Below, in pieces: positions 8,701-29,044 of a DNA stretch of 64,000 nt (position 1 is the stretch's first letter; every line of letters begins with the position of its first letter). The translations under genes were made by a program, and so were the position numbers. Origin of the DNA: Trypanosoma brucei (lineage: Eukaryota); the NCBI GenBank assembly GCA_000002445.1, contig CP000068.1, forward strand, positions 960,001 to 1,024,000. Direction: 5' to 3'. The notes under the pieces are model-generated. The model saw only the letters and a list, made by a program, of their open reading frames with translations, did no database searches and was not told where the DNA came from.

Positions 8701-9357
8701 TCAGAAACCCAACCCCAGCAGCCAGTGGTGCAACACCATACGACCATCAAGTGCCACATTGTACACATAAATGGAGTGGCTCCGCACAAATATTTTTTTT
8801 GTTGGAAAAATCTTGAGCAGTTCCTCCTCAAAGCGGAACATATCGCCCTCCACCTGTTGGATGCGGAGGTAAAATGCTGGCATTAAGTTACGAGGATGCA
8901 TAGAGAACACCTTTCCTGGAAGTACACCGTTACTGCTGCGGTGTACGAAAAATGGAATCGTATCGAGCGGATCAGCGGGTCCTAAAGGCGGAAGGTACCC
9001 AACAGCAGAATCCCTTCCCACTACACCAACTGCTTCGGGTTCTTCTTGACAACGTTGCGGTGGGCACAATTTAGCGAAGTCGTGCAATTTGTATCGGAGC
9101 GGTAGTTTCAGCAGCTCGTCGTAAACATCGCTTCGCAGCGCACGGTTCCATTTGCTATATTGAATTCGCGGCACCGGAAGAGCGGCCGCAACGTTCGCCT
9201 CAGGAGGCATTGCACCAGCAGAAATATTTGCCGCCACATCCGTTGGGCTCACAATGTTGATGTATTTTCCGGTACTGGGCATTACATCACGCCCCAGCGA
9301 TGTGTTTGCCGCGGTTCCTCCGAGCCACACGCGGCGCAAACGTGACCGGTTCAGCAT
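8701..9357 (-). CDS. hypothetical protein with N-terminal mitochondrial-presequence-like segment (MLNRSRLRRVWLGG)
   Basis: ATG verified at 9357. The N-terminus is Arg-rich and amphipathic. Confidence 0.5.
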   Translation of the reverse strand: MLNRSRLRRVWLGGTAANTSLGRDVMPSTGKYINIVSPTDVAANISAGAMPPEANVAAALPVPRIQYSKWNRALRSDVYDELLKLPLRYKLHDFAKLCPPQRCQEEPEAVGVVGRDSAVGYLPPLGPADPLDTIPFFVHRSSNGVLPGKVFSMHPRNLMPAFYLRIQQVEGDMFRFEEELLKIFPTKKIFVRSHSIYVYNVALDGRMVLHHWLLGLGF

Positions 9358-10337
9358 TTGTACCTAAGACGCTAAAAAGGATTAGTTCAGAGCCTCTCTG
9401 ATTTTGCTGATTTCACCGCCAATGTAAAAAATTACGTATAAATGTATACGTGCGCAAGTAAGTAATATCCTAAGTGAGCGTGGATATGTCCGTTTACCAA
9501 AAACAAGCGTTCTTTACCCAACTCTCCACACAGCTCTGTGCGTGTGTCTCAATTGTTGCGGGCTGCTTCAACAGTTGAACAAACAATGCAGAAGAAAGAA
9601 GGAAAGCCAACAACGACAATATGTATATATATATATATATATACATGCGCACGCACACGAATACGTGCACGTGGTGAGGTAGACAAGGTTGTATAGAAGA
9701 ATATCAAGGCATGAAGAGAAAATGGGGCTTCCTTTTCCCCAACGTGTGCAAATGTTTGCAACGGAATACTGCATTGCCTTTCTCTTTCTCCCGTGCTTTA
9801 GCAGTGCACTACGTTATGTATGTAGGAATGATGAGGCGCCAGGGTAGTGGTTTCTGCACGCTGAAGTATTGCTACCTCAGACATACAAACATCAACCTCC
9901 TCTTTCCAGCTGCCATCACTAATATTAAATTCTTATGTTAAGACTTCTTTCCCTCGTTTCTACAAAGTTTCATTGCACTCCTTGTCGGCCCCCCCCTCCC
10001 CGGATACGCCCATCGCTCGACCCTTCACTTCACTTTTCCCCCCTCTCTTTTCTTTTTCTTTTTTTCCTTTTTGAAAGTAGCCCCTCTCCTCAAACAAATC
10101 TGGAGCCTTTCTTTATGACGTATAACCTGAACTGTTCACCCCATGCCATCATTCGCTTCCCATTTGCTATCGCCCCATCGCATATGCACATGTACGCGCA
10201 CACATACATACACGTATATATATACACATACACATATATATATATATATATTGTTGTTACCTCGTCGGATGAGGGTTTCAACACGACAGAGGGGGGAGAG
10301 AGGAGGAGGCACTAATACTTCAATATGTTCCTTACGC

Positions 10338-11279: not shown

Positions 11280-12899
11280 CTTGTTGTCCTTCTTTTTTCC
11301 TTCTTTTCTCCCTTTATTGTTATTACTATTATCCTACTGCTTCTTAATTTATTTTACCCGCTTGCTTATATACCGCTACTTTTCCTCTTCTTGTAACTTC
11401 TAAAAGTTTTTATTTAGTTATTATTTTTTTTTTGCGGTCCCCGCACACGCTCACCCCCCAAACACCGGTGTCAATACGGAAAAAAAAAGAAAAAGAAATG
11501 GGGAAATTTTTGTAATGGTACATTTATTCGACCGGTTGTTTCTTGAAACCACTGCTTCCTTTTTCTTCCTTTTTAGTAACATTCCCCTTCACATCCGCAA
11601 CTCTTTTCTTTTCTTTTGATGACATTCCACATATATATATATATATATCGGGTAACGTTACTTCTGAATGTATTGCAGAGAGGTGTGTGTGTGATTACGC
11701 CTTGCATTGAAGTGCAGAAACCAACTCGTCGAGTGAGTTAATAATTATGACAATAATAATGATAATAAATAGTAATGATAATATAATTCAAATATGCGTT
11801 AAGAAAATAATGTCATAAATAAATAATTATATATATATGTATACTTATGTAGATGAAGTAGACCTTCTTTTAATGGACTACAACTCCCCCCACCCCCCCC
11901 AAAAAAAACGAATCAAAAAAAAAGGATTAAAAAATATTGGTGATGAGAGCTGACAACTTTGTTCCCATCATTACCACAGATTCCGTTTATTTCCCTTCTT
12001 TTTTTTCTTTTCCCCTTCCTCCTCTTCTCTACGGCCGTTTTTAATATTCATATATTTGACATTAGCTGTTTTTAGTTGTAACGAAACCAATTGGAGAAAG
12101 CGGAAAGTAAGGAAACAAAAACGCAAAGGGGAATAAAGAAATACAAATGCTAGAAAAGAAATCGTACGAAGAAGGGGGGAGGCTTAAAAATAAAACAAAC
12201 AAACAAACATGCAAACAAGTAAAAATGACATCGTCTTACAAAAATGGGGAAAGGGGAAAAAATAAAAATTTAAACAAGCCGACTCATGGAAACAATTTAC
12301 AGTTTATCGTGCATGGACATGTTTATCTGCAGAATAAAGTAAAATAAAATAAAAACAACGGTAACGACAACGTCAAAAGAGAAAAAAATAAAAAAAAATA
12401 GGGCAATTCATCCAGTCAGATAGGAATCCCACCGCATTCACTCTGTTGAATACAAATAAATATTTTTAAAAAAAACCGTTATTTATTTATATTTTTTATA
12501 TTTTAAGAGTCGTGACACACGGGTTAATAGGAGGAACAAATAAGTCAAAACATAACGTAGCAACACATTCAAATTTACACCAAAGGAAAACAAAACAGAA
12601 AAAAAATCAAAAATAAAAGAAGACAAGAATCAAGGAATCGTGTTGCAATTCGGATTTTTACAAGAGATATAACAAAATAATATACGTAAAGAAAACAAAC
12701 TTTTATCTGTCCTTTGCACTTTAGTAAAATTGCTTAGTCAATTGCTTGGCTGTTGGTAAAAATAAAAATAAAAAAACAAATTAGTGAATTAATGAATTAG
12801 AAACTGCAGCACGGAAATATAAAGGTGGACCTCTGCGTTTCACTCTTCTCTTTTTTTATTTCAATTTCGTGTGCCGACTCGAAAAAAAAAATCCACATA

Positions 12900-12943
<44 letters not shown>

Positions 12944-12986
12944 TTTTTTCTGCTTTCACTTCCATCAATGAACACGAAATGAGATA

Positions 12987-13053
<67 letters not shown>

Positions 13054-14406
13054 ATAAGGGGAGGGATAAAATAATAGCAAAAGTTATCATCACTATAACG
13101 ATAGATAACAAAAAAAACTATCTTTAAAAGCGTAACCAAACACAACCACACACCTGCATTCGTAACTGTACTGTAATGACAGATAAATCAATGGAAATGG
13201 ACGGTAGAAGTTGAACCAAAACTTAGGACAGAAATCAAAAAGTTTAAGTGAATGGTAAAATAGCAAAGACAAAAGAGAAAACACGCGAGAGGAATGAACA
13301 ACACCACAAACCAAAAATACAATAAAAAAATAAAAAGAGAAGAAATGAGTGAAACAAATGGGGGTAATAAAAAGCGTTTTTTTTAAATTTTGCGGCTGCT
13401 GACACATTAAAAGTTCTCATTCTCTCCGTCTCACACACAAGCGTACGATAATAATTTCCTCCTCTCGAATGGAAGACGTTTAAAAACACGCTAAAAATAA
13501 AATGAATGTGTCGCAAACGTGATGCACCGGATTGGGGAGAAGTATTGAAACAAATGCGTGATAAATATTTGCAGAGATAAAAAAAAATGATAGAAACCTG
13601 TTCCCTTTGACTTTTTTTTCCCCTTCCCCACCCTGTATTCCACTATTTGTTTTCTTTGTGCGGCTTTGGTGTTGTCCGCCTATTGCCGTTTTATTCTCTT
13701 TATTTCTTTGCGTATATATCTATCCTCCTTTCCCTTCTTCCTAAACCGCCTGGTTAGGGGAGACACTCCGCTGGCATCAAAAACAAAATAGAGTCAAGCG
13801 GAGCATGGAGGGAAAAGGAAAAGAAAAACAACAACAACACCTTCGTGTTATTGTTTCACTCATAACTTTTGCGTAGGGAATGGTAGAAAGGAATAAATGT
13901 ATATTTTAATAAAGGAGCGAAGGGGGAAAGCAAAAGCAAAACAAAGGAAAAATACAGACAAAAAAGGAATTTAAAACAGAAAAAATTGAACAATACGTAT
14001 TGATTTCTTTCGGGTTGTCACGTTTTGTCTGATTTCTCTTCCGACACCCGTGTTTTTATGTAACCAAATACGGGTAGGAGAATAAAAACAAGAAATATAT
14101 AAAGAAAATAATGATAAGGAAGGAGGGATAGAGCGATAAGGGTACAACATACACCTTATTTTCTTTCCTTTCATCCGCTAACTTAAGCGAACGTACCGGT
14201 AGATCATTCGACCGATTCCTTGTTTGTTTTTTCGCTTGTGCCTCCTCCCTCCCCCCCCCCCATACACACATCACCCACAAAACACCGTACATCACACGCC
14301 GTGCATCCAACCACATTAAAAACATGGAGACAAGATAGAAAAGAAAAACAAACAAACAAAAACCAGAAGAACACTGAGAGACTACCAGACACACACACAC
14401 AGTCGA
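11280..14406. other. 3.1 kb AT-rich intergenic/UTR region with multiple long (TA)n arrays
   Basis: No protein-like ORF. Extreme A/T skew and microsatellites. Probably a long 3' UTR of the upstream - strand gene plus the processing signals for eIF2-beta. Confidence 0.5.
12989..13051. repeat. (TA)~31 microsatellite; second (TA)n block at 12911-12940
   Basis: Read directly from the sequence. Confidence 0.95.
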
Positions 14407-17100: not shown

Positions 17101-18472
17101 CCGCCGTCCTCCTAAGAGACGGAATACAAATAAGACAATCCTATGTGGTTCTCCTTGTGTACTGCCGCGTCCTCTAGCCGCTTACACTAACATACACAAC
17201 CACTGGTCGCTGTGTAGGTTACTTCGCGTAATAGTGATAGGAAGGAAGGAATAAAATACGCACACATCAACACACGCACATAAATTGGCACCACGTAACG
17301 GCGCAAATCTTGCCGTTAAAACGTAACGAGGTTTCCGGAACAATATAAGATGACCCTCAACTGCACGTTAACACGCAAATGTAAATACACTTGCGCACAA
17401 CAACATCCCCAATAAAGAGAGAGAGATAGAGTGGTGGGGAAACAGAAAAAGGGACACACAGAAAATTATAGAGCAACGATACAGAAAGGAAACCACAAAT
17501 TAAAACATAGCGAGCCAAAATCTCCCTCTAGGAGGGAACAAAGGGACGGAGGCACGTGTTAGGAACACGCACCAGCAAGTGACCATCATGTCGTCGGTGA
17601 TTTCTCTACAAACCTCCAACCTATACACATTCACACGACGTTTCCAACATTGGAACTTAAAACCAACCACGAAGGAGGGAAGCGCAGGTGTCATTTGCAG
17701 TATAATCACGTCTCACGAGAACCTGAACGTTTTATCCCTCGAACTTCATTTATTATTTGTTGATTGAAAACGAAGTACCATCAAAAAACTTCCACCATAT
17801 ATAAATGCACACATATATATTATATATAAAAACATACGAATATATAGATTTTTTACAGCAATTTCCCCTTCCTTCCTTGCTTTGAAGGGTGCATAGATTC
17901 TATTTTTTCCCCTCTTCCCTCTTGCATGAAAAAGAACCACAAAATCGTATATGACGCACAAACACTTCCTAACACTGTGTACCTGTGTTTCCACCCCCCC
18001 CTCACAAATCACAGAGTACTTCACCAAATCTCACGTTTGTTTTGTTTTCTCCGTTTTTTTTTAAAAAAATCCTCCGCCTTACATACACTACTTTTTCTCA
18101 CTGTCCTCTCCATCTAAGCACATGTTTTAATCTTTTAATTTTACTCTCTCTCTCTCTCTCTCTCTTTGTCTCCATGTACACGCTGACTACACTACTCTGT
18201 TGACTGATGAGTCCAACCAAACAGCATCTCTAACGTTCTGTCTCTTTTCTTTTTACGCGAGAACATCCCACACAGTGCCCTTAACTTCGCATGCACTACT
18301 CGTTCAATGACTTGCCCCTTTTCAATCTGTTTACCCAGTTTCACACAATCTGCTTTAATACCAAGTGACAAACTCATGTTCAGTACAAAAAAAACACACA
18401 CACACACACACACACACATATGTAGCATCATCGAGAGCAACAAGTATGGTACAGCAACGACACTCACAACTC

Positions 18473-21400
18473 TTAAAGCTCCTGGACATTACTGAAGAAG
18501 GGGCTATTAGGGTTGAATTGAACATGCGTTGCCTCAAAGTTTTCACCCACAACCTCAAAACAATGCATTGCCATTTTTGCAGTTAGCCGCTTGTCGGGAT
18601 CGGTCACCAGTAGTGATAGAACGAAACTAGCAAATTCCAGCGAATAGTTTCGCGCCAGGATGTCGTTCATCACCATGGCAGCAAAACCCTCCCGTTCGGC
18701 CTCCTCGTACATCAGACGCACCGTCTGTACCGTTACACGGGCTGTTGCAAGAGCATACAGCACGCAACCGAGGCTCCACAAGTCGCTTGCTGTAGAGGTT
18801 TGACCAACCCAACACTCCGGTGCAATGTACGGTCGTGTGCCACCTCCTCGCCCCATCTTGCGGCGCCCCTCTAGCACAAAAGCAAGGCCAAAGTCCGTTA
18901 CAACAATAGGAATGATATCTGCTGTAATTCTCGTTGGGCAACCACCGCGACTGGTGGACCGCGGTGACTTTCCCCTTTCCTTCGGCGTTTCGTCAAACAC
19001 CTCAACTGCAACGGCAAGCGGAGAGGTAACGTCTTTCCCCTCCTTGCTTCCACCTTCCCTGTTGCAACCGTGATGAGATTTGCTGCCCCCATGCTCATGG
19101 CGCGAGCTCCCACTGCAGTCAAGGGGATTCCCACGAATAAGGATATTTTCGGGCTTAAGATCGCGGTGTACTATAGGCGGGCGCTGCGAGTGCAAGTGGT
19201 GAAGAACCGAAGAAAGTTGGTATGCAATTGAGAGTAGTTGCGGCTCCGTGAAGGGGTTTTCGCGCATCACAAACATGTCCTCCAGTTTCTTGTATATGTC
19301 ATTCATACCACTGCCACAGTTACTAGTGGAAGCCGCACCTACTCTACGGTCGGGTGCTGCGGCTCGCCCACATGGCGATGAACCGCAAGAGTCTTCTCCA
19401 CAAAACAACCTCGGCGCAGTGACTTCTGGAGGGAGAAGCGGGCTTTGACTGTTAGAGGAAATTAGACGCACCCCGTCCGAAGTATCCTCATCTCGTTTAT
19501 TAAGTTTTTCTTCATATGCACATGCTGCTTGCAGCTTTTCCCTCTCTAGTTGGGAGCGAACCTTGGGGTTATGGGTAGCGGAGTGTCGCATAGCGTAACC
19601 ACAGAGGTCACCAAGCGGATGATACTCCATGACAAGTCCTAGATAGCGGCTATGAGCTAGTCCTTGGTCCGGTGATGGCTGTGAAGAACGTTCCCTCACT
19701 TCAGCCACTGGTTTGAGTGGTGAGTGGCAGAGTGAAGCTGGAGGTACATTATCATTCGTTGGTAATATAACAACTCCATTTCCCATTGAGTATGGCTGTC
19801 TCCCCGGTGTTTGTGTGCCGTCCACCCTATGGTTGGTGTTAGTCACGGCACCAAGCGAGTGAGAACAAACATTGTTTCGGCCTCTTTCACTACGTTGAAC
19901 CTGCTGCCCCATCAGTGACGGTTGATATGTCGCCACTGTTTGCAAAGATGACACGCGACCCTCCCTTCCAATGTGGCCACCTAAAATACTAGAAGTGTCA
20001 ATTTCTGCAGTCAACACTTTAGTTGAGCTATTCCTCTGGAGGCGAGCTGCACGCACGGCGTCTGCGACCGACTTCGGTTTGGACATCGCCGGCACCGAAC
20101 AATGCGTAGGTGCGCAGGCGCATAAGTCCTCCGCCACAAAGTTGGTGTATTGCACACTTCCGGCGGCCGGTTGCACGTAATTGGGTAATGTGGGTGTTGG
20201 CGGTAATGCCGGTTGTGGACATCTGGCGACACCAGAAGCAGATATTGCGATATCGAAGTCCTTGTAGTGTATTCCACCCCGTGGAGCATAGCTTGTTCTC
20301 TTTGAAGTGGTAAGTGATTCGCCCTCCTGCTGTTGCTGCTCGCACTGGTCGTTGTTTTCGCCCTGTTGTTGTTGTTGAACTATAGGGGACGGCATTGGTT
20401 CCGTGGGTTGCGCAAAGTTGGGGTAGTGAACCACGATGGCTTGCTGTCGGGCTGGTGTAGTTAGCTGCGATGGTGTACCTACGGTCCTTACTGCTACAGT
20501 TGCCGAGTTCCCCTCTGCTCCAACAGCACTGGACGTGGTTAAACGGGTCGGTGCATTTGGCGGTGATGTTTCATGCACATCAGGAGGAGGCTGTGCGTGG
20601 TTTGAAGACCGTACACTTCCACAATGTGTTGACACCGAGGCAGCAGATGCTGATGGAGGAGGTGCAGTGGAGACCAGATTGTCCTCTTTACTCCGCTTGC
20701 CGATCGACGGTGGTGGCATATAAGACACTTCATCCGTACCTTTAGCCGTGTGTGATCTCGCAGGATCTGTGATATCGACCTTCTGAGGTTCAGCCAACGG
20801 TTTCTGACTTGCCGGCACTTCAGGTATATTACGTTTTTCTCCATGCGGTCCCGCAGGTGCACGCGGGATACCTGCATCCAACAGAGGTGCGTCGAGGCGC
20901 GAACAATTTATTTCCTTCGATGCAAACGCACAAGATCCTCGCTTCGGCTGAAAAACATATGGAGATGTCATCGCATGCGCCAAGAAGGCCTGTGGTGTTG
21001 AAGGAGATTCATTACCACCTGTAAACTCATAATTCATGAACATTTCCACAATTCGTATAATGTTTGGGTGGCCCTGCAGGGAGTTAATTGTTTCACACTC
21101 CCTTAGTGCGTCTAAGCGTTCTTTGTTATCTCTGCACACAAGGTATTTGAGAGCGAACTGCTGTTTGCTGCGTCTATGCTTGACCAAATATACAGACGAA
21201 AATGCACCTTCTCCAATACGTCGTACCACCTCGTAGCGCGAGTCCCGTGTAGTGTTCTTTACCACCATATCCATCTCTGTTCTGAAATTTGCACCATCCC
21301 CAGCAATTCTTAGATTCCGCGGAGTTGCAGCCGACCCACTTGCGGCTTCGGCAACTTTCCTCCTATGGCTTCTATCTGGTTCTGCCACGAACTGCCTTCT

Positions 21401-23401
21401 CCCGCCTGCCCTTTTGGGAGATATTCTGCTACCAATTGTCTTTCTCTCTTCCTTCGCAAGAAGATGTACAGTATAGTCCCCATCGGGTCCCCCAGCGGTT
21501 ACAGGACGAGAAATTACCGTTGTTGTCACCACCACCACGATAAGACCAGCGAGGCAAGTGGTAAAGACGCCAATAGTGTACAGAAGTTTGCGGTTTAGAC
21601 CTTCCTGGGGTTGCGGAGTCACCTCATGATGAATTCTGAACGGCGTGAAGGTGACCGGAGTATAGAGAAGAGACATTTCTACCGCTGCAGGGCAACCTCT
21701 GTCCACACAAGGGAGAGGTACAAAACCATTGGCAAAGCACACGAAAACACGCGTTGCCTCACCCATTGGGTAGAACACCGCCACCGTCGCTTCGTCCTCT
21801 TGCTGGAATACTTGTGCGTCCGTAGTCCCCGCCACGTTATCCGTACAGCGGACATTACTAGACAACCGCACAAATCCGCTGCGGGGTGGCCGCAAGGTGA
21901 GGTTAAGCGGGACACCAACGGGTATTACAGCACGCACCTCAGCTACGCTTGTGACCGCAACATCACTCGCACGGTAGAAGAGACGAGTGGAAGCCGTACC
22001 ATCAGCATCGAAACCACCAATATTAAAGAACACCATGGTTGCACCAAGAAGTCCAGTTGAGAGTGGGAAAGCAAAGGGTGTTGATATCTCAGTTGGAAGT
22101 GGGCTTCTACCGCCAATCAGCGGTTCCCACATATCTGGGCTGCTATCATTTCCGTTGTTGGGATTTGTGTGGTTGAAAAGTTTCTCAATGTCGAGGCAAT
22201 TGACGAAACTACTATTCATCATAACGCACAACCTACCGTTGAAGGCAAACATATGCCTTTTTTGAGGACTGGGAATGCTCAGTTCCATGTTACATGGCAC
22301 ACCAGGTATAAGAGACAAGGAAAGGGACGCACTAGTTTTGCTACTGTTGTCGTCATTTACAAGCGGATCACTTTCAACAAGCATAACAACCTGCACTGCG
22401 GGTGTAGGACACCACAAACCCACGGAAGATACTTCACCGGAATTGTCTGTCGCATTGACCCATTTGTGCCCCTCTGAGCACTCGCGAAACAGTTCCGATT
22501 CCCGCTGCTCAAGGGGCCCGTCATGATGCACCTCACCACCGACAACATACATAAGTGCGTTATCAAGTGTGACGAGCGGGTTTCGCACTGCCGTTGTGAG
22601 GTTGAAGATATCGGGATGGTACTGCCGTTTCTGTGTATCATACACATCCACAGTGCCAATAACTCCGCCCGTGTTCATATCAACTCCGCCCACGATGAAG
22701 AGTAAATGGCCATGTGAGGCACATGTAGCGTTGGCACGAAGTACTGTGCCCGCTGGTACACTGTCACCCACGCGCTCTTCCGCCTCTGCTCCCCTTGAGT
22801 CACTGACCCATGACTGTATGAGAAAGTGATCCACAACTTTGGTCATATCATTAGAGAGTGCCCATATGCTCGCGTACTGCTCCCTAACCAACGGGGACTG
22901 CGGAAACCCATCCCTCTCAGGGTAGTAATAACTGCAGGCACCAACAACATATACGCCCGAATTGTTTTGGTCATCAATATCATCTACCCGTACTGCACTC
23001 GTGGGGCCAGCCACCATAAGAGGTGTTGCATTCCCGTGTGCCCCACTACCAAGTCCTCGACCGCCCAGTTTGATGGGAAGTTCCATGTGCTGTGGCTCCG
23101 TTTGATCACTGGGGTCCACAATGTCAACGGCATTGACGCGCTGAGTACACGCAACATCTCTACAACCACCAATGATGACGAGGGAACCATTTAACCACAC
23201 AACGGCACTGTATGCTCGACCAATCGCCATTTCCGAGTCAAACGGTACCCATGAATCATCAGAATCCTTCAATGTACCATTGGTCGCGCGCCTAAGAGTT
23301 GAAGATTCTGCCTCACCCAACAGATAAACAACATTTGCGCCAAACAAAATTGTTACAAAAGCTACAAACACCAACATACAGAACAATGGCCGCACAACCA
23401 T
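18473..23401 (-). CDS. receptor-like protein kinase I: signal peptide, kelch-type beta-propeller-like ectodomain, single TM helix, ePK domain with ~450-aa low-complexity insert
   Basis: The track ORF reaches 23611, but its first codon is TTG and the next 69 codons read through a (TA)n/T9 tract. The first ATG is at 23401 (MVVRPLFCMLVFVAFVTILFG, a signal peptide). Repeated GG-containing propeller blades (IIGGCRD, FIVGGVDMNTGG, YVVGGEVHHDGP). TM LLYTIGVFTTCLAGLIVVVVTTTVI at about 21495-21570. Kinase motifs: GEGAFSSVY, ALKYL, HRDLKPENIL (~19165), VVTDFGLA (~18890), PYIAPECW. Confidence 0.85.
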   Translation of the reverse strand: MVVRPLFCMLVFVAFVTILFGANVVYLLGEAESSTLRRATNGTLKDSDDSWVPFDSEMAIGRAYSAVVWLNGSLVIIGGCRDVACTQRVNAVDIVDPSDQTEPQHMELPIKLGGRGLGSGAHGNATPLMVAGPTSAVRVDDIDDQNNSGVYVVGACSYYYPERDGFPQSPLVREQYASIWALSNDMTKVVDHFLIQSWVSDSRGAEAEERVGDSVPAGTVLRANATCASHGHLLFIVGGVDMNTGGVIGTVDVYDTQKRQYHPDIFNLTTAVRNPLVTLDNALMYVVGGEVHHDGPLEQRESELFRECSEGHKWVNATDNSGEVSSVGLWCPTPAVQVVMLVESDPLVNDDNSSKTSASLSLSLIPGVPCNMELSIPSPQKRHMFAFNGRLCVMMNSSFVNCLDIEKLFNHTNPNNGNDSSPDMWEPLIGGRSPLPTEISTPFAFPLSTGLLGATMVFFNIGGFDADGTASTRLFYRASDVAVTSVAEVRAVIPVGVPLNLTLRPPRSGFVRLSSNVRCTDNVAGTTDAQVFQQEDEATVAVFYPMGEATRVFVCFANGFVPLPCVDRGCPAAVEMSLLYTPVTFTPFRIHHEVTPQPQEGLNRKLLYTIGVFTTCLAGLIVVVVTTTVISRPVTAGGPDGDYTVHLLAKEERKTIGSRISPKRAGGRRQFVAEPDRSHRRKVAEAASGSAATPRNLRIAGDGANFRTEMDMVVKNTTRDSRYEVVRRIGEGAFSSVYLVKHRRSKQQFALKYLVCRDNKERLDALRECETINSLQGHPNIIRIVEMFMNYEFTGGNESPSTPQAFLAHAMTSPYVFQPKRGSCAFASKEINCSRLDAPLLDAGIPRAPAGPHGEKRNIPEVPASQKPLAEPQKVDITDPARSHTAKGTDEVSYMPPPSIGKRSKEDNLVSTAPPPSASAASVSTHCGSVRSSNHAQPPPDVHETSPPNAPTRLTTSSAVGAEGNSATVAVRTVGTPSQLTTPARQQAIVVHYPNFAQPTEPMPSPIVQQQQQGENNDQCEQQQQEGESLTTSKRTSYAPRGGIHYKDFDIAISASGVARCPQPALPPTPTLPNYVQPAAGSVQYTNFVAEDLCACAPTHCSVPAMSKPKSVADAVRAARLQRNSSTKVLTAEIDTSSILGGHIGREGRVSSLQTVATYQPSLMGQQVQRSERGRNNVCSHSLGAVTNTNHRVDGTQTPGRQPYSMGNGVVILPTNDNVPPASLCHSPLKPVAEVRERSSQPSPDQGLAHSRYLGLVMEYHPLGDLCGYAMRHSATHNPKVRSQLEREKLQAACAYEEKLNKRDEDTSDGVRLISSNSQSPLLPPEVTAPRLFCGEDSCGSSPCGRAAAPDRRVGAASTSNCGSGMNDIYKKLEDMFVMRENPFTEPQLLSIAYQLSSVLHHLHSQRPPIVHRDLKPENILIRGNPLDCSGSSRHEHGGSKSHHGCNREGGSKEGKDVTSPLAVAVEVFDETPKERGKSPRSTSRGGCPTRITADIIPIVVTDFGLAFVLEGRRKMGRGGGTRPYIAPECWVGQTSTASDLWSLGCVLYALATARVTVQTVRLMYEEAEREGFAAMVMNDILARNYSLEFASFVLSLLVTDPDKRLTAKMAMHCFEVVGENFEATHVQFNPNSPFFSNVQEL

Positions 23402-24181
23402 TGTATATATATATATATATTTTTTTTTTATAACTTCTTTTATCCAAGTGTTTTTATGACTGTCTGTATGAAAGTTCGGATACAATTCGCCAGAAATCCG
23501 GGGACTAGCGGGTAGCAAATGTGGCAGTGACGCCAGAGCACCACGAACTGCTCTTCCCCCTCCTCCACTGCTACCAATAATGTAGTTGTACTGTAAACAA
23601 TCACAACACAAATAAATAAGTAAATAAAGGGAAAGTTTGCACCATTAATGACAGGAAAAGTCAAGGAAGATATCAAGAAGGGAGTACGAGTAGTATGGGC
23701 GTTGCAAGTGATGGCAACAAAAAAATCAGAGGGAACAGAATGATTTCGTTCGCCACTTCCCTTTTCTACAACTGTGACCGTGCATATTAGTGGAAGGTAC
23801 ATCAGGGAGGGGGAAAGGATTGACTGATATTACTGAAGAATAAAAAGTTATATATATTTACGGAGAGGGGGGGGAGAGAACAGGAAAAACAATTAGCGGA
23901 TGGAAAAAGTGGGCTTACTGTACTCATATATCCGTTCTCCACTTTTTTTCATTTTTTAAAAAAATCAAAGCACCAAATCGGAAAACTCGGACGGACACTG
24001 CTATATACCGCAGTAAGGAACTAAAACAAAATGCGTACAGAAACAATAAATTATATATACGTCCGTAAGATAGTTTGAATCTACTTTGAAACTCTTGTTA
24101 CACAACTTTCTCCTTGTACGCTAACATCAACTGAGACACACCTATATCCACACACATACACACGCACAAGCAAGCAAACGA

Positions 24182-24769: not shown

Positions 24770-27700
24770 TCAAACGTTTTTGGAAACTGTCAGTGGCACC
24801 GGAGATTCCCTTTTCGATGAATTAAGAGAAGTTGCAACAAGTGAAGGAGACTCTCGTGCAATAAAAAATTCGCACTGCTCACCCTCCTCTGCGACAGTTT
24901 CGAAATACTGTTGGAGCACCTGCAATCGGCGACTCCTTCTACCATTTGGGGAGCCTAGTTTGTGTGCCCGAGCAACCGGAGGAACGTCCATCGTATTATG
25001 GTGTTCCTGTCGCATGCCCTGGCTTGAATCAGCGTGTGATCCATGGGAGAAACTAGTAATGGGAGGCATATTTTGTGACTCTACCGCTTTTGGTGGGGGA
25101 CTATTTAGTCCGAATCCTTCACCGGCCCCTCCAGACGGTGTAACAACTTCAACTGTGGCCCCACTGCGGTGCGTAGAGAAACTTGTAGATTTCAGCGTCC
25201 CGCAGACTACATCAGATCCTTGACCACTTACCGGTGCCCTCGATTCACCTCCGTATCCACTGACTTCCTCAGACGTCGCAGCCACCAACTGTTTATAGGA
25301 ATCGTCATGCATTATTCCACCTTCTGCTCCATTTCCTTCCTCATCACTGCATCCACTCGCAACATCATCGTCCCCCTTATACACCGTAACCATCGCAGCC
25401 TCTTCCGTCAGGCCATCCGTACCCTTACGACGCCTGCGAATAAATCTCAGGGCTTCCTCAGCACTTGGCCGGCGAGCTGGATCTGGCTCCAAAAGATAAA
25501 CAATGAAGGCCGCAAGTGCCATACTATACCCGTATACCTGTGTTAATTCTTCCAGCAACTTCTTTTTGAAGTCTGGTTTGTTGGACTCGCTAAACATAAC
25601 TTTTACATTGTCACTTTCTACGCGCTTTGCGCATACGGCGTAAAGAATGCACCCGGTGGCCCAAATATCCACCTTTGTGGAGTAGTGTCGCTGCCAACAC
25701 TCCGGTGCCACATACGGCAGCGAACCGACGCCCGTTTCGCAGAAGGTCTTGTCCATCACACGCGAAAGTCCAAAGTCTGTCACAACAATGCGCAGCGTCT
25801 CCTCTGAGGCGCCGGTGCCGATTCTTCCGCTGCTGTTCTTCGAACTCCAATCTACCCTGTCATATCTATCCCGGTTCCTCCCCCTTTTCACAGCAGGCGA
25901 CGAATCGAGAAGAATGTTTTCTGGCTTTAAGTCACGGTGAATGATTGGCGGTTTTTGTTGGTGCATGAACTGCAGAACCGTTAGTATCTGAAATGCAATG
26001 CTCACCACTGTCTTTTCAGGAATCTTTGGTTCTGACTTTTGTTGCCGCACCCACATACCCAAGTCCCCCCTCTCATGATAAGCCATTACAAGTGATAAGT
26101 ACCGCTCCCCCGCCTGGGGGCGGTGTGATGGTACGTGGGATTCTGATTCATCACCGCTGCCTACACGGTGAATGCGAGTGGGATCGTGTAGCAGCAGCTC
26201 ACCGCGACACTGACGTCGATACGCGCCTTTCCTCCCATCAACGCCGTCGGAGGTCGGTAGATGGGTATCAAACCGATAGGACATGAACATGTCAACGAGG
26301 CATATCACATTTGGGTGCCCTTGAAGGGTGTAAGCGACCTCACACTCTCGCATGGCCTCGTGACGATCCATGTCATCGGCACATTGAACGTACTTCAATG
26401 CGAATCGTTCTCCATCCATCACTCGTTCCACAAGGTACACTACGGAGAATCCACCCCTACCGAGGCGGCGCAGTACCCGGTATTTTCCATCCAGCAAACT
26501 TTGTTTCTGGTGCACCGGAAGAGCAGCACCTGGACCGAAACCTCGGCGATGTCTGCTCTTATCATCATTTTCGTCATCGTAGTCACCAGATTCGTCCTCC
26601 GAGAAACATCCTTCGACTACAGTCACATCAACTTCCTTACCATGTTTGTGCCTTATAGCATAACTTATCATGCTAGCACTCCACAGCACTAAACTCACAC
26701 CACATCCTACTGCCACACCAACAAGGTAAAGTGGTTCAACAGCTGGTGGCGGCACCGGCTGAGGACCTGGTGGATCCGGTACCCAATGAGTTACAGGGGA
26801 AAGAACAAATGGGTCGTTTGCATTTAGTGGTCGGTAGAAACCAGTAGTACACGGTCCTTGATGCGCATCCATCGCGCCCAGCGGTACGTGTGGCGCCCTT
26901 AACATTGATGAGGATGATTCATGCACCGCCCTCTCGTTACACCGCTGGACGGTGGCCGCTCCAGTGGAGAAGCAGACATAAACAAACAACTGCTCGTAAA
27001 ACACATTATCTGTATCATTACCGAAACTTCTTTGCGTTGGTCGGGGATGAAACACAAATTCATCTCGATGTGTGGTGCTGGTGTTTATGTAAGGAGTGGT
27101 GATATTATGTATACCGTTTATGAGGGAGCCAGTGAGAGTGATCGGACCCACGGCAACGGTGTTCACGACCGCGGAGACGTTCTTGCCCGGGTCAGTCATA
27201 TTTACTACGTAGGGCCAAGTATTGGCGAATGACAAATTCCCCAAGTTTAACAATACAGAGTTGCACGCAGGCGAATCGGAAAGCCGCAACAAACATGTTG
27301 ATGATGTTAGATTGCCGCTCACTTCCCCTGTAGCATTGATGCCCTGACAGGCAGTTGAAATCTGTTCCGACAAAAGGATTGCAAACGTGAAATTATACCA
27401 CAGTGGCTTATACCCGTTTACGTGCACTGTCCAGTTTCCGTCTTTATTTGGCAAGTCCGCCGGAGGGGGCGTTGGTTGATCGTGCATTGTTGCATTAGCT
27501 GTTGGTTGCTCCTCGTCATGAAATGGGTCGTCGAGAACACTCTGCCCCGTATGTGATATACTGTCCACCTCTGTCGTATCTCCTTTCGAAAATTTGGCCT
27601 CTACTATTTGGCCTCCTTCCCCACTGCGCGCTATTCCTAACATTTGCCGGTGTGTCGCGTCATCTGCCACTGAAATGTAGTTAAATCCCTGCACCGTCAC

Positions 27701-29044
27701 ATCAGCATGACCGTCTGCAACATGCACGTTACCGGTGAAGAGATCGCGTGAAATACCCGTCCCATCCGGTGGGGGTATTTGCCCGCCTATGAGATAGAGT
27801 GACATGCCGTCGGCATTTGGTACGGAAGCAATAACGGCGTTGGTACGCAGCGGTGCAAAACCAATCATCACATCTGTCGCGTCACTACCCGGCCCTGAGA
27901 GGTCCACCCATGACTCCAGTCGATCGAAAGAACGTCGATATGTTGCCGCAATCATTGCCAACGTTCGATTGTATATCATGAGCTGCGGCGACAACCAGTC
28001 TAACAACTCAGAGTCGAACTGACCAACATCTGCCGTGAAGTATGTGGGGTCCACAACATACACGTTGTCGTTGTATTCTGGCCAGCCTCTGTAGTCACGG
28101 CAGCCCCCTCCAATAAACACAAGCTCACTGTTGTCTACCACGCCCGGTGTAATAAGTGAGGTGCCCAACCCCCAACCAGCGTCGACAAATTGTCCAGTAA
28201 CTGTGTTGAACTGTGAAACGGACGTCATGGGGTTACCATCTATTAACGATACACCACCTACGATATAAATTGTACCATTGCCATTCCCCACACAACTAGC
28301 GTTGAAGCGAAGTGTTGCGGTGTCGGGAATCGAAATGTGTTGTATATCCATTGAGAGATCATCCACTGGAGGGAACTGCTGTTGGTACAACCTAATTACT
28401 TGGACAGATCGAAGAGTTGCATTGATTGTTTGCCCGCGACCAGGACGAACACCATAGGGAAGCATTGTACAGAAGCCAATAACGTACACTGTCGATCCCA
28501 GCCGAACTGCGTTTGATGTTCCGACAGCCGGAAAGTGCAACTTCGCCGGCACGCGCACGTCCCCTTTGGTTCTCCCGTGAAAAGTTTCACTACCACTACC
28601 GTCGTGTGCAAATGTTGCATTATCTTGAAACATCATGGGTGTCACAAATGTCTCGGTAGTTATATCCAAAGCACTGATCGTGGTAAGTGCGTAATACCGG
28701 ACGAAGTTCTCTGCCGATGTGAAGGGCCGAACGAGCCGGGTACCTCCAACGATAAGAACATAACGACCCATCGATACCGCTGACGGCAAAATACCCGTTA
28801 CGTTGAGGCTGGCTTTGCTTGGACTCCATCCCGTAAAGGTAACAGTTGTTTGGTCGGTGTCATCGTCAAGGAGAGATGATACCGCTTGAACGGCATTAGC
28901 AGATTCGTGACGCCGCGCAGGCGTGGCCCTCAGTGGCGCTGCTAAGGAATAACGGGATGTGAGGGAGAGGAGCAGCAGAGCCCATATCCTAAGAAAAAGG
29001 CAATATCTAACCAACACCATGCGTCCTCCTGGCGTTGTGGTCAT
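24770..29044 (-). CDS. receptor-like protein kinase II (paralogue of kinase I): signal peptide, beta-propeller-like ectodomain, TM helix, ePK domain
   Basis: The track start at 29089 is TTG. The first ATG is at 29044 (MTTTPGGRMVLVRYCLFLRIWALLLLSLTSRYSLAAP, a signal peptide). Propeller-like blades (YVLIVGGTRL, YIVGGVSLIDGN, YLIGGQIPPPDG, FIGGGCRDY). TM LYLVGVAVGCGVSLVLWSASMISYAI (~26655-26735). Kinase motifs: LGRGGFSVVYLV, ALKYVQC, IIHRDLKPENILLD (~25930), VVTDFGLSRV (~25790), PYVAPECW. Confidence 0.85.
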   Translation of the reverse strand: MTTTPGGRMVLVRYCLFLRIWALLLLSLTSRYSLAAPLRATPARRHESANAVQAVSSLLDDDTDQTTVTFTGWSPSKASLNVTGILPSAVSMGRYVLIVGGTRLVRPFTSAENFVRYYALTTISALDITTETFVTPMMFQDNATFAHDGSGSETFHGRTKGDVRVPAKLHFPAVGTSNAVRLGSTVYVIGFCTMLPYGVRPGRGQTINATLRSVQVIRLYQQQFPPVDDLSMDIQHISIPDTATLRFNASCVGNGNGTIYIVGGVSLIDGNPMTSVSQFNTVTGQFVDAGWGLGTSLITPGVVDNSELVFIGGGCRDYRGWPEYNDNVYVVDPTYFTADVGQFDSELLDWLSPQLMIYNRTLAMIAATYRRSFDRLESWVDLSGPGSDATDVMIGFAPLRTNAVIASVPNADGMSLYLIGGQIPPPDGTGISRDLFTGNVHVADGHADVTVQGFNYISVADDATHRQMLGIARSGEGGQIVEAKFSKGDTTEVDSISHTGQSVLDDPFHDEEQPTANATMHDQPTPPPADLPNKDGNWTVHVNGYKPLWYNFTFAILLSEQISTACQGINATGEVSGNLTSSTCLLRLSDSPACNSVLLNLGNLSFANTWPYVVNMTDPGKNVSAVVNTVAVGPITLTGSLINGIHNITTPYINTSTTHRDEFVFHPRPTQRSFGNDTDNVFYEQLFVYVCFSTGAATVQRCNERAVHESSSSMLRAPHVPLGAMDAHQGPCTTGFYRPLNANDPFVLSPVTHWVPDPPGPQPVPPPAVEPLYLVGVAVGCGVSLVLWSASMISYAIRHKHGKEVDVTVVEGCFSEDESGDYDDENDDKSRHRRGFGPGAALPVHQKQSLLDGKYRVLRRLGRGGFSVVYLVERVMDGERFALKYVQCADDMDRHEAMRECEVAYTLQGHPNVICLVDMFMSYRFDTHLPTSDGVDGRKGAYRRQCRGELLLHDPTRIHRVGSGDESESHVPSHRPQAGERYLSLVMAYHERGDLGMWVRQQKSEPKIPEKTVVSIAFQILTVLQFMHQQKPPIIHRDLKPENILLDSSPAVKRGRNRDRYDRVDWSSKNSSGRIGTGASEETLRIVVTDFGLSRVMDKTFCETGVGSLPYVAPECWQRHYSTKVDIWATGCILYAVCAKRVESDNVKVMFSESNKPDFKKKLLEELTQVYGYSMALAAFIVYLLEPDPARRPSAEEALRFIRRRRKGTDGLTEEAAMVTVYKGDDDVASGCSDEEGNGAEGGIMHDDSYKQLVAATSEEVSGYGGESRAPVSGQGSDVVCGTLKSTSFSTHRSGATVEVVTPSGGAGEGFGLNSPPPKAVESQNMPPITSFSHGSHADSSQGMRQEHHNTMDVPPVARAHKLGSPNGRRSRRLQVLQQYFETVAEEGEQCEFFIARESPSLVATSLNSSKRESPVPLTVSKNV

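What the first reader, a model, noticed from the sequence alone, without database searches (positions are those of the whole stretch)
19660..21025. ~450-aa low-complexity insertion splitting the kinase domain of kinase I
The N-lobe (GEGAFSSVY ... IVEMFMNYEF, coded ~21240-21025) is separated from the hinge/C-lobe (YLGLVMEYHPLGDL at ~19650, HRD at ~19165) by about 1.36 kb of S/T/P/Q-rich sequence. The paralogue carries only ~60 aa at the same position. A second ~90-aa insert sits between HRD and DFG. These look like lineage-specific regulatory or phospho-acceptor loops, or alternatively an assembly artefact.
Basis: seen in the sequence. Interest (0 to 1): 0.5.

Follow-up and report, generated by a model that had tools for sequence, protein, structure and literature searches.

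The report
Giant disordered loop inside a trypanosome kinase
A membrane protein kinase of Trypanosoma brucei (Tb927.5.3150) really does carry a 459-residue, mostly disordered loop inside its catalytic domain; the loop is translated, sits at the same point in all related parasites (about 1,200 residues in Leishmania relatives) and contains a few short conserved motifs, so it is a real but fairly ordinary kind of kinase insert loop.

Summary
Kinase I is Tb927.5.3150 of T. brucei TREU927: minus strand, ATG 23401, stop 18473, 1642 aa. The N-lobe ends at aa 793 (nt 21023) and strand beta5 starts at aa 1253 (nt 19645). The 459 codons between them have no stop in frame, against 11-24 stops in each of the other five frames.

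It is not an assembly artefact. Four Trypanozoon assemblies give the same 1642-aa length. The whole ORF was PCR-cloned and expressed as one tagged protein of at least 178 kDa (Jensen 2021). Orthologues keep an insert at the same position: 417-492 aa in five Trypanosoma species and 1136-1232 aa in Leishmaniinae.

There are three inserts, not two.

The big insert is compositionally biased and predicted disordered rather than truly low-complexity. It holds four conserved islands: three copies of hydrophobic-x-Y-x-[N/D]-F, and one SVADAVRAAR helix.

With the inserts removed, the core is a complete canonical kinase of the "orphan/unique" class. It is not an eIF2alpha kinase.

Most likely function (inferred): a flexible docking or regulatory loop, working like the PERK kinase insert loop. 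It is a new member of a known kind, of moderate interest.

The parts
18473..23401 (-). Whole gene Tb927.5.3150 (kinase I), 1642 aa plus stop. Layout: signal peptide, lumenal/extracellular region with a Kelch motif, one TM, then a kinase domain split by three inserts.
   Evidence: ORF. The exact protein is XP_844987.1. Published cloning primers map to 23401 and 18476. Pfam finds Pkinase in 3 stretches plus Kelch_1.
21506..21586 (-). Transmembrane segment, aa 606-632.
   Evidence: Kyte-Doolittle peak of 2.37 at aa 612-630. A TMHMM TMD at 607-629 is listed in Jensen 2021 S2 Table.
21023..21241 (-). Kinase N-lobe, beta1-beta4, aa 721-793 (G-loop GEGAFSSV, FALK lysine, alphaC, HPNIIRIVEMFMNYEF).
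   Evidence: Aligns to canonical kinases. pLDDT about 90, with beta4 at aa 784-790. 79-81% identical in T. grayi and T. rangeli.
19646..21022 (-). INS1: the 459-aa insert in the beta4-beta5 loop (aa 794-1252). This is the reported finding.
   Evidence: No stop in frame. 22-25% identity to orthologues. pLDDT below 50 over nearly all of aa 797-1242.
20414..20431 (-). Conserved island 1, VHYPNF (aa 991-996).
   Evidence: Y, N and F are invariant in five Trypanosoma species. RYxNF-type motifs also occur in Leishmaniinae and Phytomonas.
20255..20272 (-). Conserved island 2, IHYKDF(D) (aa 1044-1049), preceded by KRTSYAPRG.
20138..20155 (-). Conserved island 3, VQYTNF (aa 1083-1088), preceded by VQPAxG.
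20042..20080 (-). Conserved island 4, KPKSVADAVRAAR (aa 1108-1120), a short predicted helix.
   Evidence: Nearly invariant in Trypanosoma. Present as GRLSVSAAIRxARAGQ in Leishmaniinae. The only secondary structure AF2 predicts inside INS1, a helix at aa 1112-1120.
19577..19645 (-). Strand beta5, hinge and alphaD, aa 1253-1275 (YLGLVMEYHPLGDL...).
   Evidence: AF2 places beta5 at aa 1252-1259 with pLDDT above 90.
19268..19576 (-). INS2: ~103-aa insert between alphaD and alphaE (aa 1276-1378). Partly helical.
   Evidence: The hinge-to-alphaE gap is 117 aa against a family baseline of 10-13. AF2 predicts helices at aa 1279-1306 (pLDDT 78-89) and 1365-1381. Orthologues have 107-110 aa here.
19130..19267 (-). 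alphaE and catalytic loop, aa 1379-1424 (HRDLKPEN at 1412-1419).
18917..19129 (-). INS3: ~71-aa insert between the catalytic loop and DFG (aa 1425-1495). G/S/R/E-rich and predicted disordered.
   Evidence: A gap of 77 aa against a baseline of 7. pLDDT below 50.
18476..18916 (-). DFG, activation loop (GGGTRPYIAPECW), the rest of the C-lobe and the conserved C-terminal tail FNPNSPFFSNVQEL (aa 1496-1642).
24770..29044 (-). Tandem paralogue Tb927.5.3160 (kinase II), 1424 aa. Its beta4-beta5 insert is only 56 aa (aa 926-981, nt 26102-26269).
   Evidence: RNAi primers of Jones 2014 map inside it. The tandem order is kept in T. b. gambiense and T. grayi.

Best explanation
INS1 is a genuine, translated, intrinsically disordered kinase insert loop.

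Where it sits. It leaves the N-lobe of Tb927.5.3150 at the hairpin between strands beta4 and beta5. These two strands lie side by side, so the ends of the loop meet and the kinase fold closes normally around them. Two smaller loops interrupt the C-lobe. Together the three inserts stretch a ~290-residue catalytic core over ~920 residues.

How it evolved. This loop is an expansion hot spot in a kinetoplastid-specific family of orphan kinases, many of which have a membrane-anchored, receptor-like layout:
- about 20-65 aa in most members;
- 56 aa in the tandem paralogue;
- 72-103 aa in the sister group of the K1 lineage;
- 417-492 aa in Trypanosoma K1 orthologues;
- 1136-1232 aa in Leishmaniinae K1 orthologues.

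What constrains it. Most of the loop drifts freely. Four short islands are held constant: three hydrophobic-x-Y-x-[N/D]-F motifs and one basic amphipathic helix, SVADAVRAAR.

What is shown: reality, position, disorder, conservation pattern and evolutionary history.

What is inferred: the function. I propose that the loop is a flexible platform on the back of the N-lobe. It would use the conserved motifs, and probably phosphorylation of its many S/T residues, to recruit a partner or substrate or to regulate the kinase itself. This is how the beta4-beta5 insert loop of PERK works.
For: Reality and continuity:
- There are 0 stops in frame against 11-24 in the other frames, P = 3e-9.
- The protein is identical in T. 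equiperdum and 9 residues different in T. b. gambiense.
- Published cloning primers map to the exact ends of the ORF.
- The tagged protein runs 10-20% above 178 kDa and is in the ER, and an endogenous C-terminal tag gives a reticulated pattern.

True loop insertion:
- With the three segments removed, the core aligns as one stretch to canonical kinases, and the score rises from 64 to 98 bits.
- AF2 gives the core pLDDT about 90, with beta4 (aa 784-790) and beta5 (aa 1252-1259) in place.
- All catalytic motifs are present.

Disorder:
- pLDDT is below 50 over nearly all of aa 797-1242.
- 98% of the insert scores above the TOP-IDP disorder threshold.
- Pfam finds no domain in it or in the Leishmaniinae inserts.

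Conservation pattern:
- INS1 is 22-25% identical to orthologues, against 74-89% for the core pieces.
- The islands are invariant across five Trypanosoma species and recognisable in Leishmaniinae and Phytomonas.
- Y-x-[N/D]-F occurs 3 times against 0.01 expected, and 0 of 20,000 shuffles reach 3.

Evolutionary history.

The giant-insert version is functional. LmxM.08.0530 could not be deleted and was scored essential in two studies.

The PERK precedent. Its insert loop is in the same beta4-beta5 position. It is poorly conserved in sequence but conserved in size, autophosphorylated, dispensable for catalysis and needed for substrate recruitment.
Against: - No direct functional data exist for the loop.
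- No phosphosites were found for the gene in the three supplement sets I could search. The main T. brucei phosphoproteome (Urbaniak 2013) is not held in the library.
- AF2 does not dock any island onto the core with confidence.
- RNAi of Tb927.5.3150 gave no loss of fitness in bloodstream forms.
- Kinase activity of this protein has not been demonstrated.
- Between T. b. brucei and T. b. gambiense, INS1 has 3 nonsynonymous and 1 synonymous changes, while the core has 0 and 4. This fits weak constraint on most of the loop, although the counts are tiny.
- The loop length differs more than tenfold between lineages, so exact length cannot matter much.
Confidence: 0.6

Rival explanations
1. The loop is tolerated filler. 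The beta4-beta5 hairpin is a structurally permissive site, and the sequence there grew by slippage and drift. It has no function beyond not disturbing the fold. The conserved islands would be leftovers, or serve only to keep the loop soluble.
For: - INS1 is only 22-25% identical between Trypanosoma species.
- Length ranges from 72 to 1232 aa within the K1 lineage, and the loop also grew independently in Leishmaniinae K2 orthologues (116-253 aa) and in P0122 (1024 aa).
- Homopolymer runs are common, and 23-36% of the Leishmaniinae inserts are strictly low-complexity.
- pN/pS is about 1 on tiny counts.
- RNAi gave no phenotype in T. brucei.
Against: - Four islands are invariant across Trypanosoma and recognisable in Leishmaniinae and Phytomonas.
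- The motif occurs 3 times against 0.01 expected.
- Loop size is held at 417-492 aa across all five Trypanosoma species sampled.
- The reading frame is kept open over more than 1100 codons in an essential Leishmania gene.
- This rival probably does describe most of the loop. It fails only for the islands.
Confidence: 0.27
2. The interval is an assembly or annotation artefact: a frameshift, a chimeric join, or two separate genes encoding a half-kinase each.
For: Only prior suspicion. In addition, the annotated Phytomonas EM1 gene model (P0009) starts inside the insert, which looks like a split gene.
Against: - The frame is open.
- The protein has the same 1642-aa length in four assemblies, and orthologues in four further Trypanosoma species are collinear.
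- The ORF was PCR-cloned end to end and expressed at full size.
- The Phytomonas ORF in fact continues upstream through the N-lobe and a TM segment, so that gene model is simply truncated.
Confidence: 0.01
3. The segment is removed after transcription or translation, as a cis-spliced intron or an intein, so the mature kinase is contiguous.
For: None. It was considered only because the flanks rejoin into a perfect kinase core.
Against: - The in-frame ORF is kept in all orthologues.
- The tagged protein made from the genomic ORF runs above its predicted 178 kDa, not at about 130 kDa.
- Pfam finds no intein or other domain.
- Cis-introns are extremely rare in trypanosomes (general knowledge, not tested here).
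Confidence: 0.01
4. Kinase I is a divergent PERK-type eIF2alpha kinase, and INS1 is the family's hallmark insert between subdomains IV and V.
For: - The insert position is the same.
- The protein is in the ER.
- The topology is the same: lumenal domain, one TM, cytosolic kinase.
Against: - No eIF2alpha kinase is among the top 60 PDB sequence hits to the spliced core. These are CDPK, NEK1, RAD53, MARK and PDK1, at 1e-27 to 1e-22.
- None is in the top 50 structural hits.
- Published kinome studies class the gene as 'unique' or 'orphan' and state that it is not orthologous to PERK. Those studies list three other genes as the T. brucei eIF2alpha kinases.
Confidence: 0.03
5. INS1 hides a folded accessory domain or a membrane hairpin that current profiles cannot detect.
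For: CCTOP predicted a TMD 'punctuating' the kinase domain.
Against: - pLDDT is below 50 throughout, apart from one 9-residue helix.
- Only 20% of residues are hydrophobic, against 37% in the core.
- No hydropathy peak lies inside INS1. The only peak in the kinase region is the beta-strand/DFG segment at aa 1492-1510.
- Pfam finds nothing.
- The sequence cannot be aligned between species outside the islands.
Confidence: 0.03

Closest known systems
Kinase insert loop of PERK (EIF2AK3) and other eIF2alpha kinases (GCN2, HRI, PKR)
   Same: - The insert is in the same structural position, the beta4-beta5 loop of the N-lobe.
- Its sequence is poorly conserved, but its unusual size is kept among orthologues.
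- The overall layout matches: an ER-resident, single-pass protein with a lumenal domain and a cytosolic kinase.
- The PERK loop is dispensable for catalysis, autophosphorylated and needed for substrate recruitment (PMC2063550). That is the working model I adopt here.
   Different: - The catalytic core is not an eIF2alpha kinase by sequence or by fold ranking.
- The core is classed as 'unique' or 'orphan'.
- The Marciniak paper calls the PERK loop one of the largest among Ser/Thr kinases, without giving a length in the passages I read. From memory it is about 200 aa, which would make the 459-aa and ~1200-aa loops here much longer.
- Tb927.5.3150 has two further inserts in the C-lobe.
- It has defined conserved motifs, whereas the PERK loop lacks sequence conservation and binds substrate mainly through ionic contacts with its phosphorylated residues.
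- No phosphorylation or substrate data exist for it.
Human NKF4 family (PDIK1L / STK35)
   Same: - JGI names several close relatives of this family 'PDIK1L'.
- PDIK1L and STK35 also have an insert of 37-40 aa at the same beta4-beta5 point.
- They share local motifs: a Cys two residues after the catalytic Lys, HPNVI, and APE-x-W-x-x-x-Y-T/S.
   Different: - A profile of the kinetoplastid family scores NKF4 proteins no better than the best generic CAMK- or NEK-like kinases: median 127 against 133 bits. That comparison set was pre-selected as best hits, so the test is biased against NKF4.
- Identity is only 24-31%.
- NKF4 proteins are soluble and have no ectodomain or TM.
Tb927.5.3160 (tandem paralogue) and the wider kinetoplastid family found here
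   Same: - The architecture is the same: a hydrophobic N-terminus, an ectodomain, a TM-like segment and a kinase.
- The insert positions are the same.
- The tandem arrangement is conserved in T. b. gambiense and T. grayi, and in Leptomonas seymouri the two orthologues carry adjacent accession numbers.
   Different: - The beta4-beta5 insert is 52-60 aa in Trypanosoma K2 proteins.
- There is no alphaD-alphaE insert.
- The Y-x-N/D-F and SVADAVRAAR islands were not checked in K2 itself. None was found in the short-insert K1-like relatives (P0075, P0078, P0080, P0007).
- K2 has a long C-terminal tail instead.
Large catalytic-domain inserts of other parasite kinases (trypanosomatid and apicomplexan kinomes)
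   Same: Long, biased, poorly conserved insertions in surface loops of otherwise intact kinase domains are a recognised feature. The 2005 trypanosomatid kinome paper removed all insertions longer than 25 aa before building its trees.
   Different: In the papers I could search, this particular insert, its family-wide history and its conserved motifs are not described.

Membership tests
Eukaryotic protein kinase (ePK) superfamily, catalytically competent | G-loop, VAIK lysine, alphaC glutamate, HRD...N catalytic loop, DFG and APE, in canonical order. | tested here: met
   GEGAFSSV 730-737, FALK (K752), LRECE, HRDLKPEN 1412-1419, DFG 1503-1505 and APE 1527-1529. Pfam Pkinase scores 137.8 bits against a cut-off of 31.7. 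The spliced core aligns end to end with canonical kinases.
Eukaryotic protein kinase (ePK) superfamily, catalytically competent | Bilobal kinase fold. | tested here: met
   The AF2 core has pLDDT about 90. Foldseek matches solved kinases at probability 1.00 over 236-300 columns. This is a prediction, not an experimental structure.
Eukaryotic protein kinase (ePK) superfamily, catalytically competent | Demonstrated phosphotransfer activity. | not testable with these tools
   Jensen 2021 assayed only MEKK1 and FHK, not Tb927.5.3150.
Kinase insert loop (beta4-beta5, between subdomains IV and V), as in PERK/GCN2 | Extra sequence located between strands beta4 and beta5 of the N-lobe. | tested here: met
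   There is no gap at this point in the alignment to CDPK once INS1 is removed. AF2 places beta4 at aa 784-790 and beta5 at aa 1252-1259.
Kinase insert loop (beta4-beta5, between subdomains IV and V), as in PERK/GCN2 | Size conserved among orthologues while the sequence is poorly conserved. | tested here: met
   417-492 aa in five Trypanosoma species, at 22-25% identity.
Kinase insert loop (beta4-beta5, between subdomains IV and V), as in PERK/GCN2 | The loop is (auto)phosphorylated and needed for substrate recruitment, but not for catalysis. | not testable with these tools
   No phosphosite entries for the gene were found in the supplements searched. This needs experiments.
eIF2alpha kinase (PEK) family | The catalytic core is most similar to PERK, PKR, GCN2 or HRI. 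| tested here: not met
   No eIF2alpha kinase is among the top 60 PDB sequence hits or the top 50 fold hits. The literature classes the gene as unique or orphan and not orthologous to PERK.
eIF2alpha kinase (PEK) family | Phosphorylates eIF2alpha. | not testable with these tools
   No data.
NKF4 (PDIK1L/STK35) | The kinase core is closer to PDIK1L/STK35 than to other kinase families. | tested here: inconclusive
   The family profile scores NKF4 proteins at a median of 127 bits and the pre-selected best generic kinases at 133 bits. JGI names relatives 'PDIK1L'. Identity is 24-31%.
NKF4 (PDIK1L/STK35) | A short insert in the beta4-beta5 loop. | tested here: met
   PDIK1L has 37 extra residues and STK35 has 40 at the same profile position. 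The kinetoplastid family has 20-1232.
Intrinsically disordered region carrying short linear motifs | Predicted disorder with a biased composition. | tested here: met
   pLDDT below 50. 98% of the insert is above the TOP-IDP threshold. 20% of residues are hydrophobic, against 37% in the core.
Intrinsically disordered region carrying short linear motifs | Short conserved islands within otherwise unalignable sequence. | tested here: met
   Four islands. The motif count is far above chance.
Intrinsically disordered region carrying short linear motifs | The motifs bind a defined partner. | not testable with these tools
   No partner is known, and AF2 shows no confident docking onto the protein's own core.

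The most novel reading that the evidence does not exclude
Tb927.5.3150 and its Leishmania orthologue are a PERK-like ER sensor that evolved independently in kinetoplastids. A lumenal Kelch-type propeller would sense a signal. The cytosolic orphan kinase would then phosphorylate its own giant beta4-beta5 loop. The three hydrophobic-x-Y-x-[N/D]-F motifs and the SVADAVRAAR helix would recruit a specific effector. This would be a second ER-to-cytosol signalling route in organisms that lack a classical unfolded-protein response, and it would explain why the Leishmania gene is essential.
Probability: 0.08. Interest if true: 0.75.

Novelty: new member of a known kind. Interest (0 to 1): 0.38.

Why it matters
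- It removes doubt about a suspicious-looking gene model. The split kinase domain is real and is one polypeptide.
- The beta4-beta5 loop of a kinetoplastid-specific orphan kinase family is an expansion hot spot. It has grown from tens of residues to about 1200 in a Leishmania gene that two studies scored as essential.
- The analysis narrows about 460 residues of apparently featureless sequence to four short conserved motifs. These can be mutated directly.
- Such inserts also break gene prediction. The Phytomonas EM1 gene model is truncated inside the loop, and Pfam reports the kinase domain in three pieces. Kinome surveys that rely on contiguous domain hits can therefore mis-size or miss these kinases.

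Tried and rejected
- A DNA search of the region against the phage collection found nothing and was irrelevant.
- The first full-length homology search returned only 4 proteins, probably because biased-sequence words swamped the candidate list. I replaced it with a spliced-core query and an exhaustive search.
- The eIF2alpha-kinase hypothesis was prompted by the insert position and the ER location. It was rejected on sequence and fold ranking and on the literature.
- The tandem-repeat origin of the insert was rejected: there are no repeats in the ORF DNA.
- A hidden domain or TM inside the insert was rejected.
- Phosphosite support was not obtained. Three supplement sets had no entry for the gene, and Urbaniak 2013 is not held. 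This is absence of evidence only, because the stored files may be truncated.
- The pN/pS comparison of T. b. brucei and T. b. gambiense has too few substitutions (22 in the whole gene) to be informative.
- NKF4 membership is not supported by profile scores, although the insert position is shared.
- A first attempt to align the family failed on a reading-frame error. I replaced it with piece-by-piece mapping.
- One family member (P0081) mapped with an insert length of 0, which may be a mapping error. It was not used.
Full report
**Identity of the locus.** The window is Trypanosoma brucei brucei TREU927. The protein encoded on the minus strand from ATG 23401 to stop 18473 (1642 aa) is identical to XP_844987.1/AAZ11428.1. 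The same sequence is on record for T. equiperdum, and a 1642-aa version exists in T. b. gambiense DAL972 and in a second T. equiperdum assembly. The cloning primers published for Tb927.5.3150 map exactly to 23401 and 18476, so kinase I is Tb927.5.3150. The RNAi primers for Tb927.5.3160 map inside the neighbouring ORF (24770..29044), so that gene is the "paralogue".

**Check of the observation.**
- GEGAFSSVY is aa 730-738.
- The N-lobe ends with ...MFMNYEF at aa 793 (nt 21023).
- YLGLVMEYHPLGDL starts at aa 1253 (nt 19645).
- HRD is at aa 1412 (nt 19168).

The intervening 459 codons (nt 21022-19646) have no stop in frame, against 11-24 stops in each of the other five frames. The chance of that is 3e-9. 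The paralogue has 56 residues at this point.

Two corrections are needed. First, there are three inserts, not two. The HRD-to-DFG insert is about 70 aa rather than ~90. Second, "low-complexity" overstates the case. S+T+P+Q make up 37% of INS1 against 19% of the core, and hydrophobic residues 20% against 37%. However, only 10% of INS1 falls below a SEG-like entropy threshold, and the DNA has no tandem repeats.

**Are these true loop insertions?** When the three segments are deleted in silico, the remaining 295 residues align as a single stretch, end to end, with canonical kinase domains. The best hit is CDPK 3is5 over residues 21-278, and the score rises from 64 to 98 bits. All catalytic motifs are present.

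I ran an AlphaFold2 model of aa 695-1642 with a 37-sequence alignment.
- The four core pieces have pLDDT about 90.
- beta4 is at aa 784-790 and beta5 at aa 1252-1259.
- Nearly all of aa 797-1242 is below pLDDT 50.
- The only secondary structure in INS1 is a 9-residue helix at aa 1112-1120.
- INS2 is partly helical (aa 1279-1306 at pLDDT 78-89, and aa 1365-1381).
- INS3 is disordered.

Foldseek against the PDB returns ordinary Ser/Thr kinases (CDPK, CaMKII, WNK3, PhK-gamma).

**Artefact, split gene or excised element?** All three are rejected.
- The protein has the same 1642-aa length in four assemblies.
- T. grayi, T. rangeli, T. conorhini and T. vivax orthologues are collinear, with INS1 of 492, 472, 491 and 417 aa and similar INS2 and INS3.
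- Jensen et al. 2021 (PMC8519429) amplified the whole ORF and expressed it with a C-terminal V5 tag. They report that the tagged proteins ran 10-20% above predicted size, which is 178 kDa here. The protein co-localised with BiP in the ER.
- The TrypTag endogenous C-terminal tag is also reticulated, and ribosome profiling put most of these kinases near the median.

A C-terminal tag that follows an N-terminal signal/TM to the ER, at full size, excludes two separate proteins. It also excludes removal of a 50-kDa segment.

The one apparent split gene is the 487-aa Phytomonas EM1 model, which starts inside the insert. It is an annotation truncation. The open frame continues upstream through a ~440-aa insert, the N-lobe and a TM segment.

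**Conservation pattern.** Against T. grayi and T. rangeli, the core pieces are 74-89% identical and the inserts 21-29%. An alignment of INS1 from five Trypanosoma species cannot be aligned over most of its length but contains four sharply conserved islands:
- VHYPNF (aa 991-996);
- IHYKDF (aa 1044-1049);
- VQYTNF (aa 1083-1088);
- KPKSVADAVRAAR (aa 1108-1120).

The first three are copies of one motif, hydrophobic-x-Y-x-[N/D]-F. It occurs three times against 0.01 expected from composition, and none of 20,000 shuffles reaches three. The motifs use three of the only six Phe residues in the insert. The fourth island is exactly the short helix AF2 predicts. Leishmaniinae orthologues keep one or two R-Y-x-[N/D]-F motifs and G-R-L-S-V-S-A-A-I-R-x-A-R-A-G-Q, and Phytomonas keeps GVHYTNF. 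Short-insert relatives lack these islands.

**Family and history.** An exhaustive HMMER search with aa 695-1642 found 105 proteins at E <= 1e-30. I mapped the four core pieces onto each hit to measure loop lengths, and took taxon names from cluster look-ups. The beta4-beta5 insert, which is 0 in canonical kinases, has these lengths:

| Group | beta4-beta5 insert (aa) |
|---|---|
| Most family members | about 20-65 |
| Trypanosoma K2 proteins | 52-60 |
| Leishmaniinae K2 proteins | 116-253 |
| Sister group of the K1 lineage (unnamed environmental sequences) | 72-103 |
| Unnamed intermediates | 401-578 |
| Trypanosoma K1 orthologues | 417-492 |
| Leishmaniinae K1 orthologues (Leptomonas pyrrhocoris, L. 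seymouri, Leishmania braziliensis, Leishmania sp. Namibia) | 1136-1232 |

A neighbour-joining tree of spliced cores, without bootstrap support, recovers these groupings. The tandem K2-K1 order is conserved in T. b. gambiense and T. grayi, and the two L. seymouri orthologues have adjacent accessions. Pfam finds no domain inside the giant inserts. The loop is therefore an ancestral feature of the family that has expanded repeatedly and lineage-specifically.

**Function of the gene.**
- Kinome studies class the gene as "unique" or "orphan" (Parsons 2005; Jones 2014).
- RNAi in bloodstream T. brucei gave no loss of fitness.
- The Leishmania orthologue named by Jensen et al. is LmjF.08.0530.
- The L. 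mexicana gene LmxM.08.0530 is one of the kinases for which no null mutant could be made. It is listed as "Other/unique" with an endomembrane location (Baker 2021). A second CRISPR study scored it essential.
- That LmxM.08.0530 corresponds to the ~2000-aa proteins in my set is an inference. It rests on the shared gene number, and on the published note that the L. major orthologue lacks ~370 N-terminal residues, which matches the earlier N-lobe start (aa ~250-390) in these proteins.

**Mechanism.** What is shown: INS1 is a translated, disordered loop that leaves and re-enters the N-lobe at the beta4-beta5 hairpin, carries four constrained motifs, and is otherwise free to drift and grow. What is inferred: it acts as a flexible docking or regulatory platform.

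The best precedent is the PERK kinase insert loop, which occupies the same position. It is poorly conserved in sequence but conserved in size, is the main autophosphorylation target, is dispensable for catalysis, and is required to recruit eIF2 (Marciniak 2006). The ER location and the layout of lumenal domain, TM and kinase add to the resemblance.

This is an analogy, not membership. The core is no closer to eIF2alpha kinases than to CAMK, NEK or PDK1, and the literature says it is not a PERK orthologue.

The aromatic-x-x-aromatic spacing of the repeated motif recalls the FxxF hydrophobic motif of AGC kinases and Y-x-x-hydrophobic sorting signals. Both are comparisons from memory and were not tested. 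AF2 does not dock any island on the core with confidence.

The main rival is that most of the loop is tolerated filler. That is probably true for the unaligned ~90% of it, but it does not explain the islands.

**Closest named family.** JGI labels several relatives "PDIK1L". I verified my recalled human PDIK1L sequence against database entries at 100% identity. PDIK1L and STK35 carry a 37-40-aa insert at the same beta4-beta5 position and share local motifs. However, a profile of the kinetoplastid family scores them no higher than the best generic kinases, with medians of 127 and 133 bits. NKF4 affiliation is therefore unresolved.

**Verdict.** The artefact reading is refuted. The "regulatory loop" reading is plausible but unproven. 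The feature belongs to a known kind, the kinase insert loop or disordered region with short linear motifs. In the literature I could search, this instance, its extreme growth in Leishmaniinae and its conserved motifs are not described. Interest is moderate.

Noticed in passing
AF2 predicts a long helix (aa 1279-1306, pLDDT 78-89) whose charged, heptad-like sequence is conserved in T. grayi and T. rangeli. The paralogue has no insert here.
   Followed up: partly
window 24770-29044 (Tb927.5.3160): The paralogue has a hydrophobic N-terminus (aa 10-28) and a TM-like segment (aa 772-797) just before its kinase domain. It is not among the ten transmembrane kinases listed by Jensen et al. 2021, so it may be an overlooked eleventh membrane kinase. 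The evidence is a Kyte-Doolittle scan only.
   Followed up: partly
L003 6222-9464 (Phytomonas sp. EM1, HF955062.1): The annotated 487-aa protein (8001-9464) starts at a Met inside the beta4-beta5 insert. The open frame continues upstream for about 590 more codons and encodes a TM segment, the kinase N-lobe and a GVHYTNF island. The deposited gene model is therefore truncated.
   Followed up: yes
P0103, P0105, P0111 (Leishmaniinae-type K2 orthologues) and P0122 (2608 aa, EukProt): The same beta4-beta5 loop has expanded independently outside the K1 lineage: 116-253 aa in Leishmaniinae K2 proteins, and 1024 aa in an unnamed 2608-aa protein.
   Followed up: partly
window 18400-18418 and 23404-23420: Short dinucleotide microsatellites flank the ORF. 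(AC)9.5 lies about 55 nt downstream of the stop codon, and (TA)8.5 lies immediately upstream of the ATG.
   Followed up: no
window 23402-23611: The mechanical ORF extends 70 codons upstream of the real start, to a TTG at 23611. The annotated and experimentally used start is the ATG at 23401, which is followed by a signal-peptide-like segment.
   Followed up: yes
window 18872-18928 (aa 1492-1510): The hydrophobic stretch ITADIIPIVVTDFGLAFVL, the beta-strand leading into DFG, gives a hydropathy peak of 1.95. It is probably the spurious CCTOP 'TMD punctuating the kinase domain' mentioned by Jensen et al.
   Followed up: partly
window 12001-14000: This stretch is markedly AT-rich (GC 0.30-0.34, against about 0.50 elsewhere) and has a positive AT skew. 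It contains no ORF of 250 aa or more, so it may be a long intergenic or UTR region.
   Followed up: no
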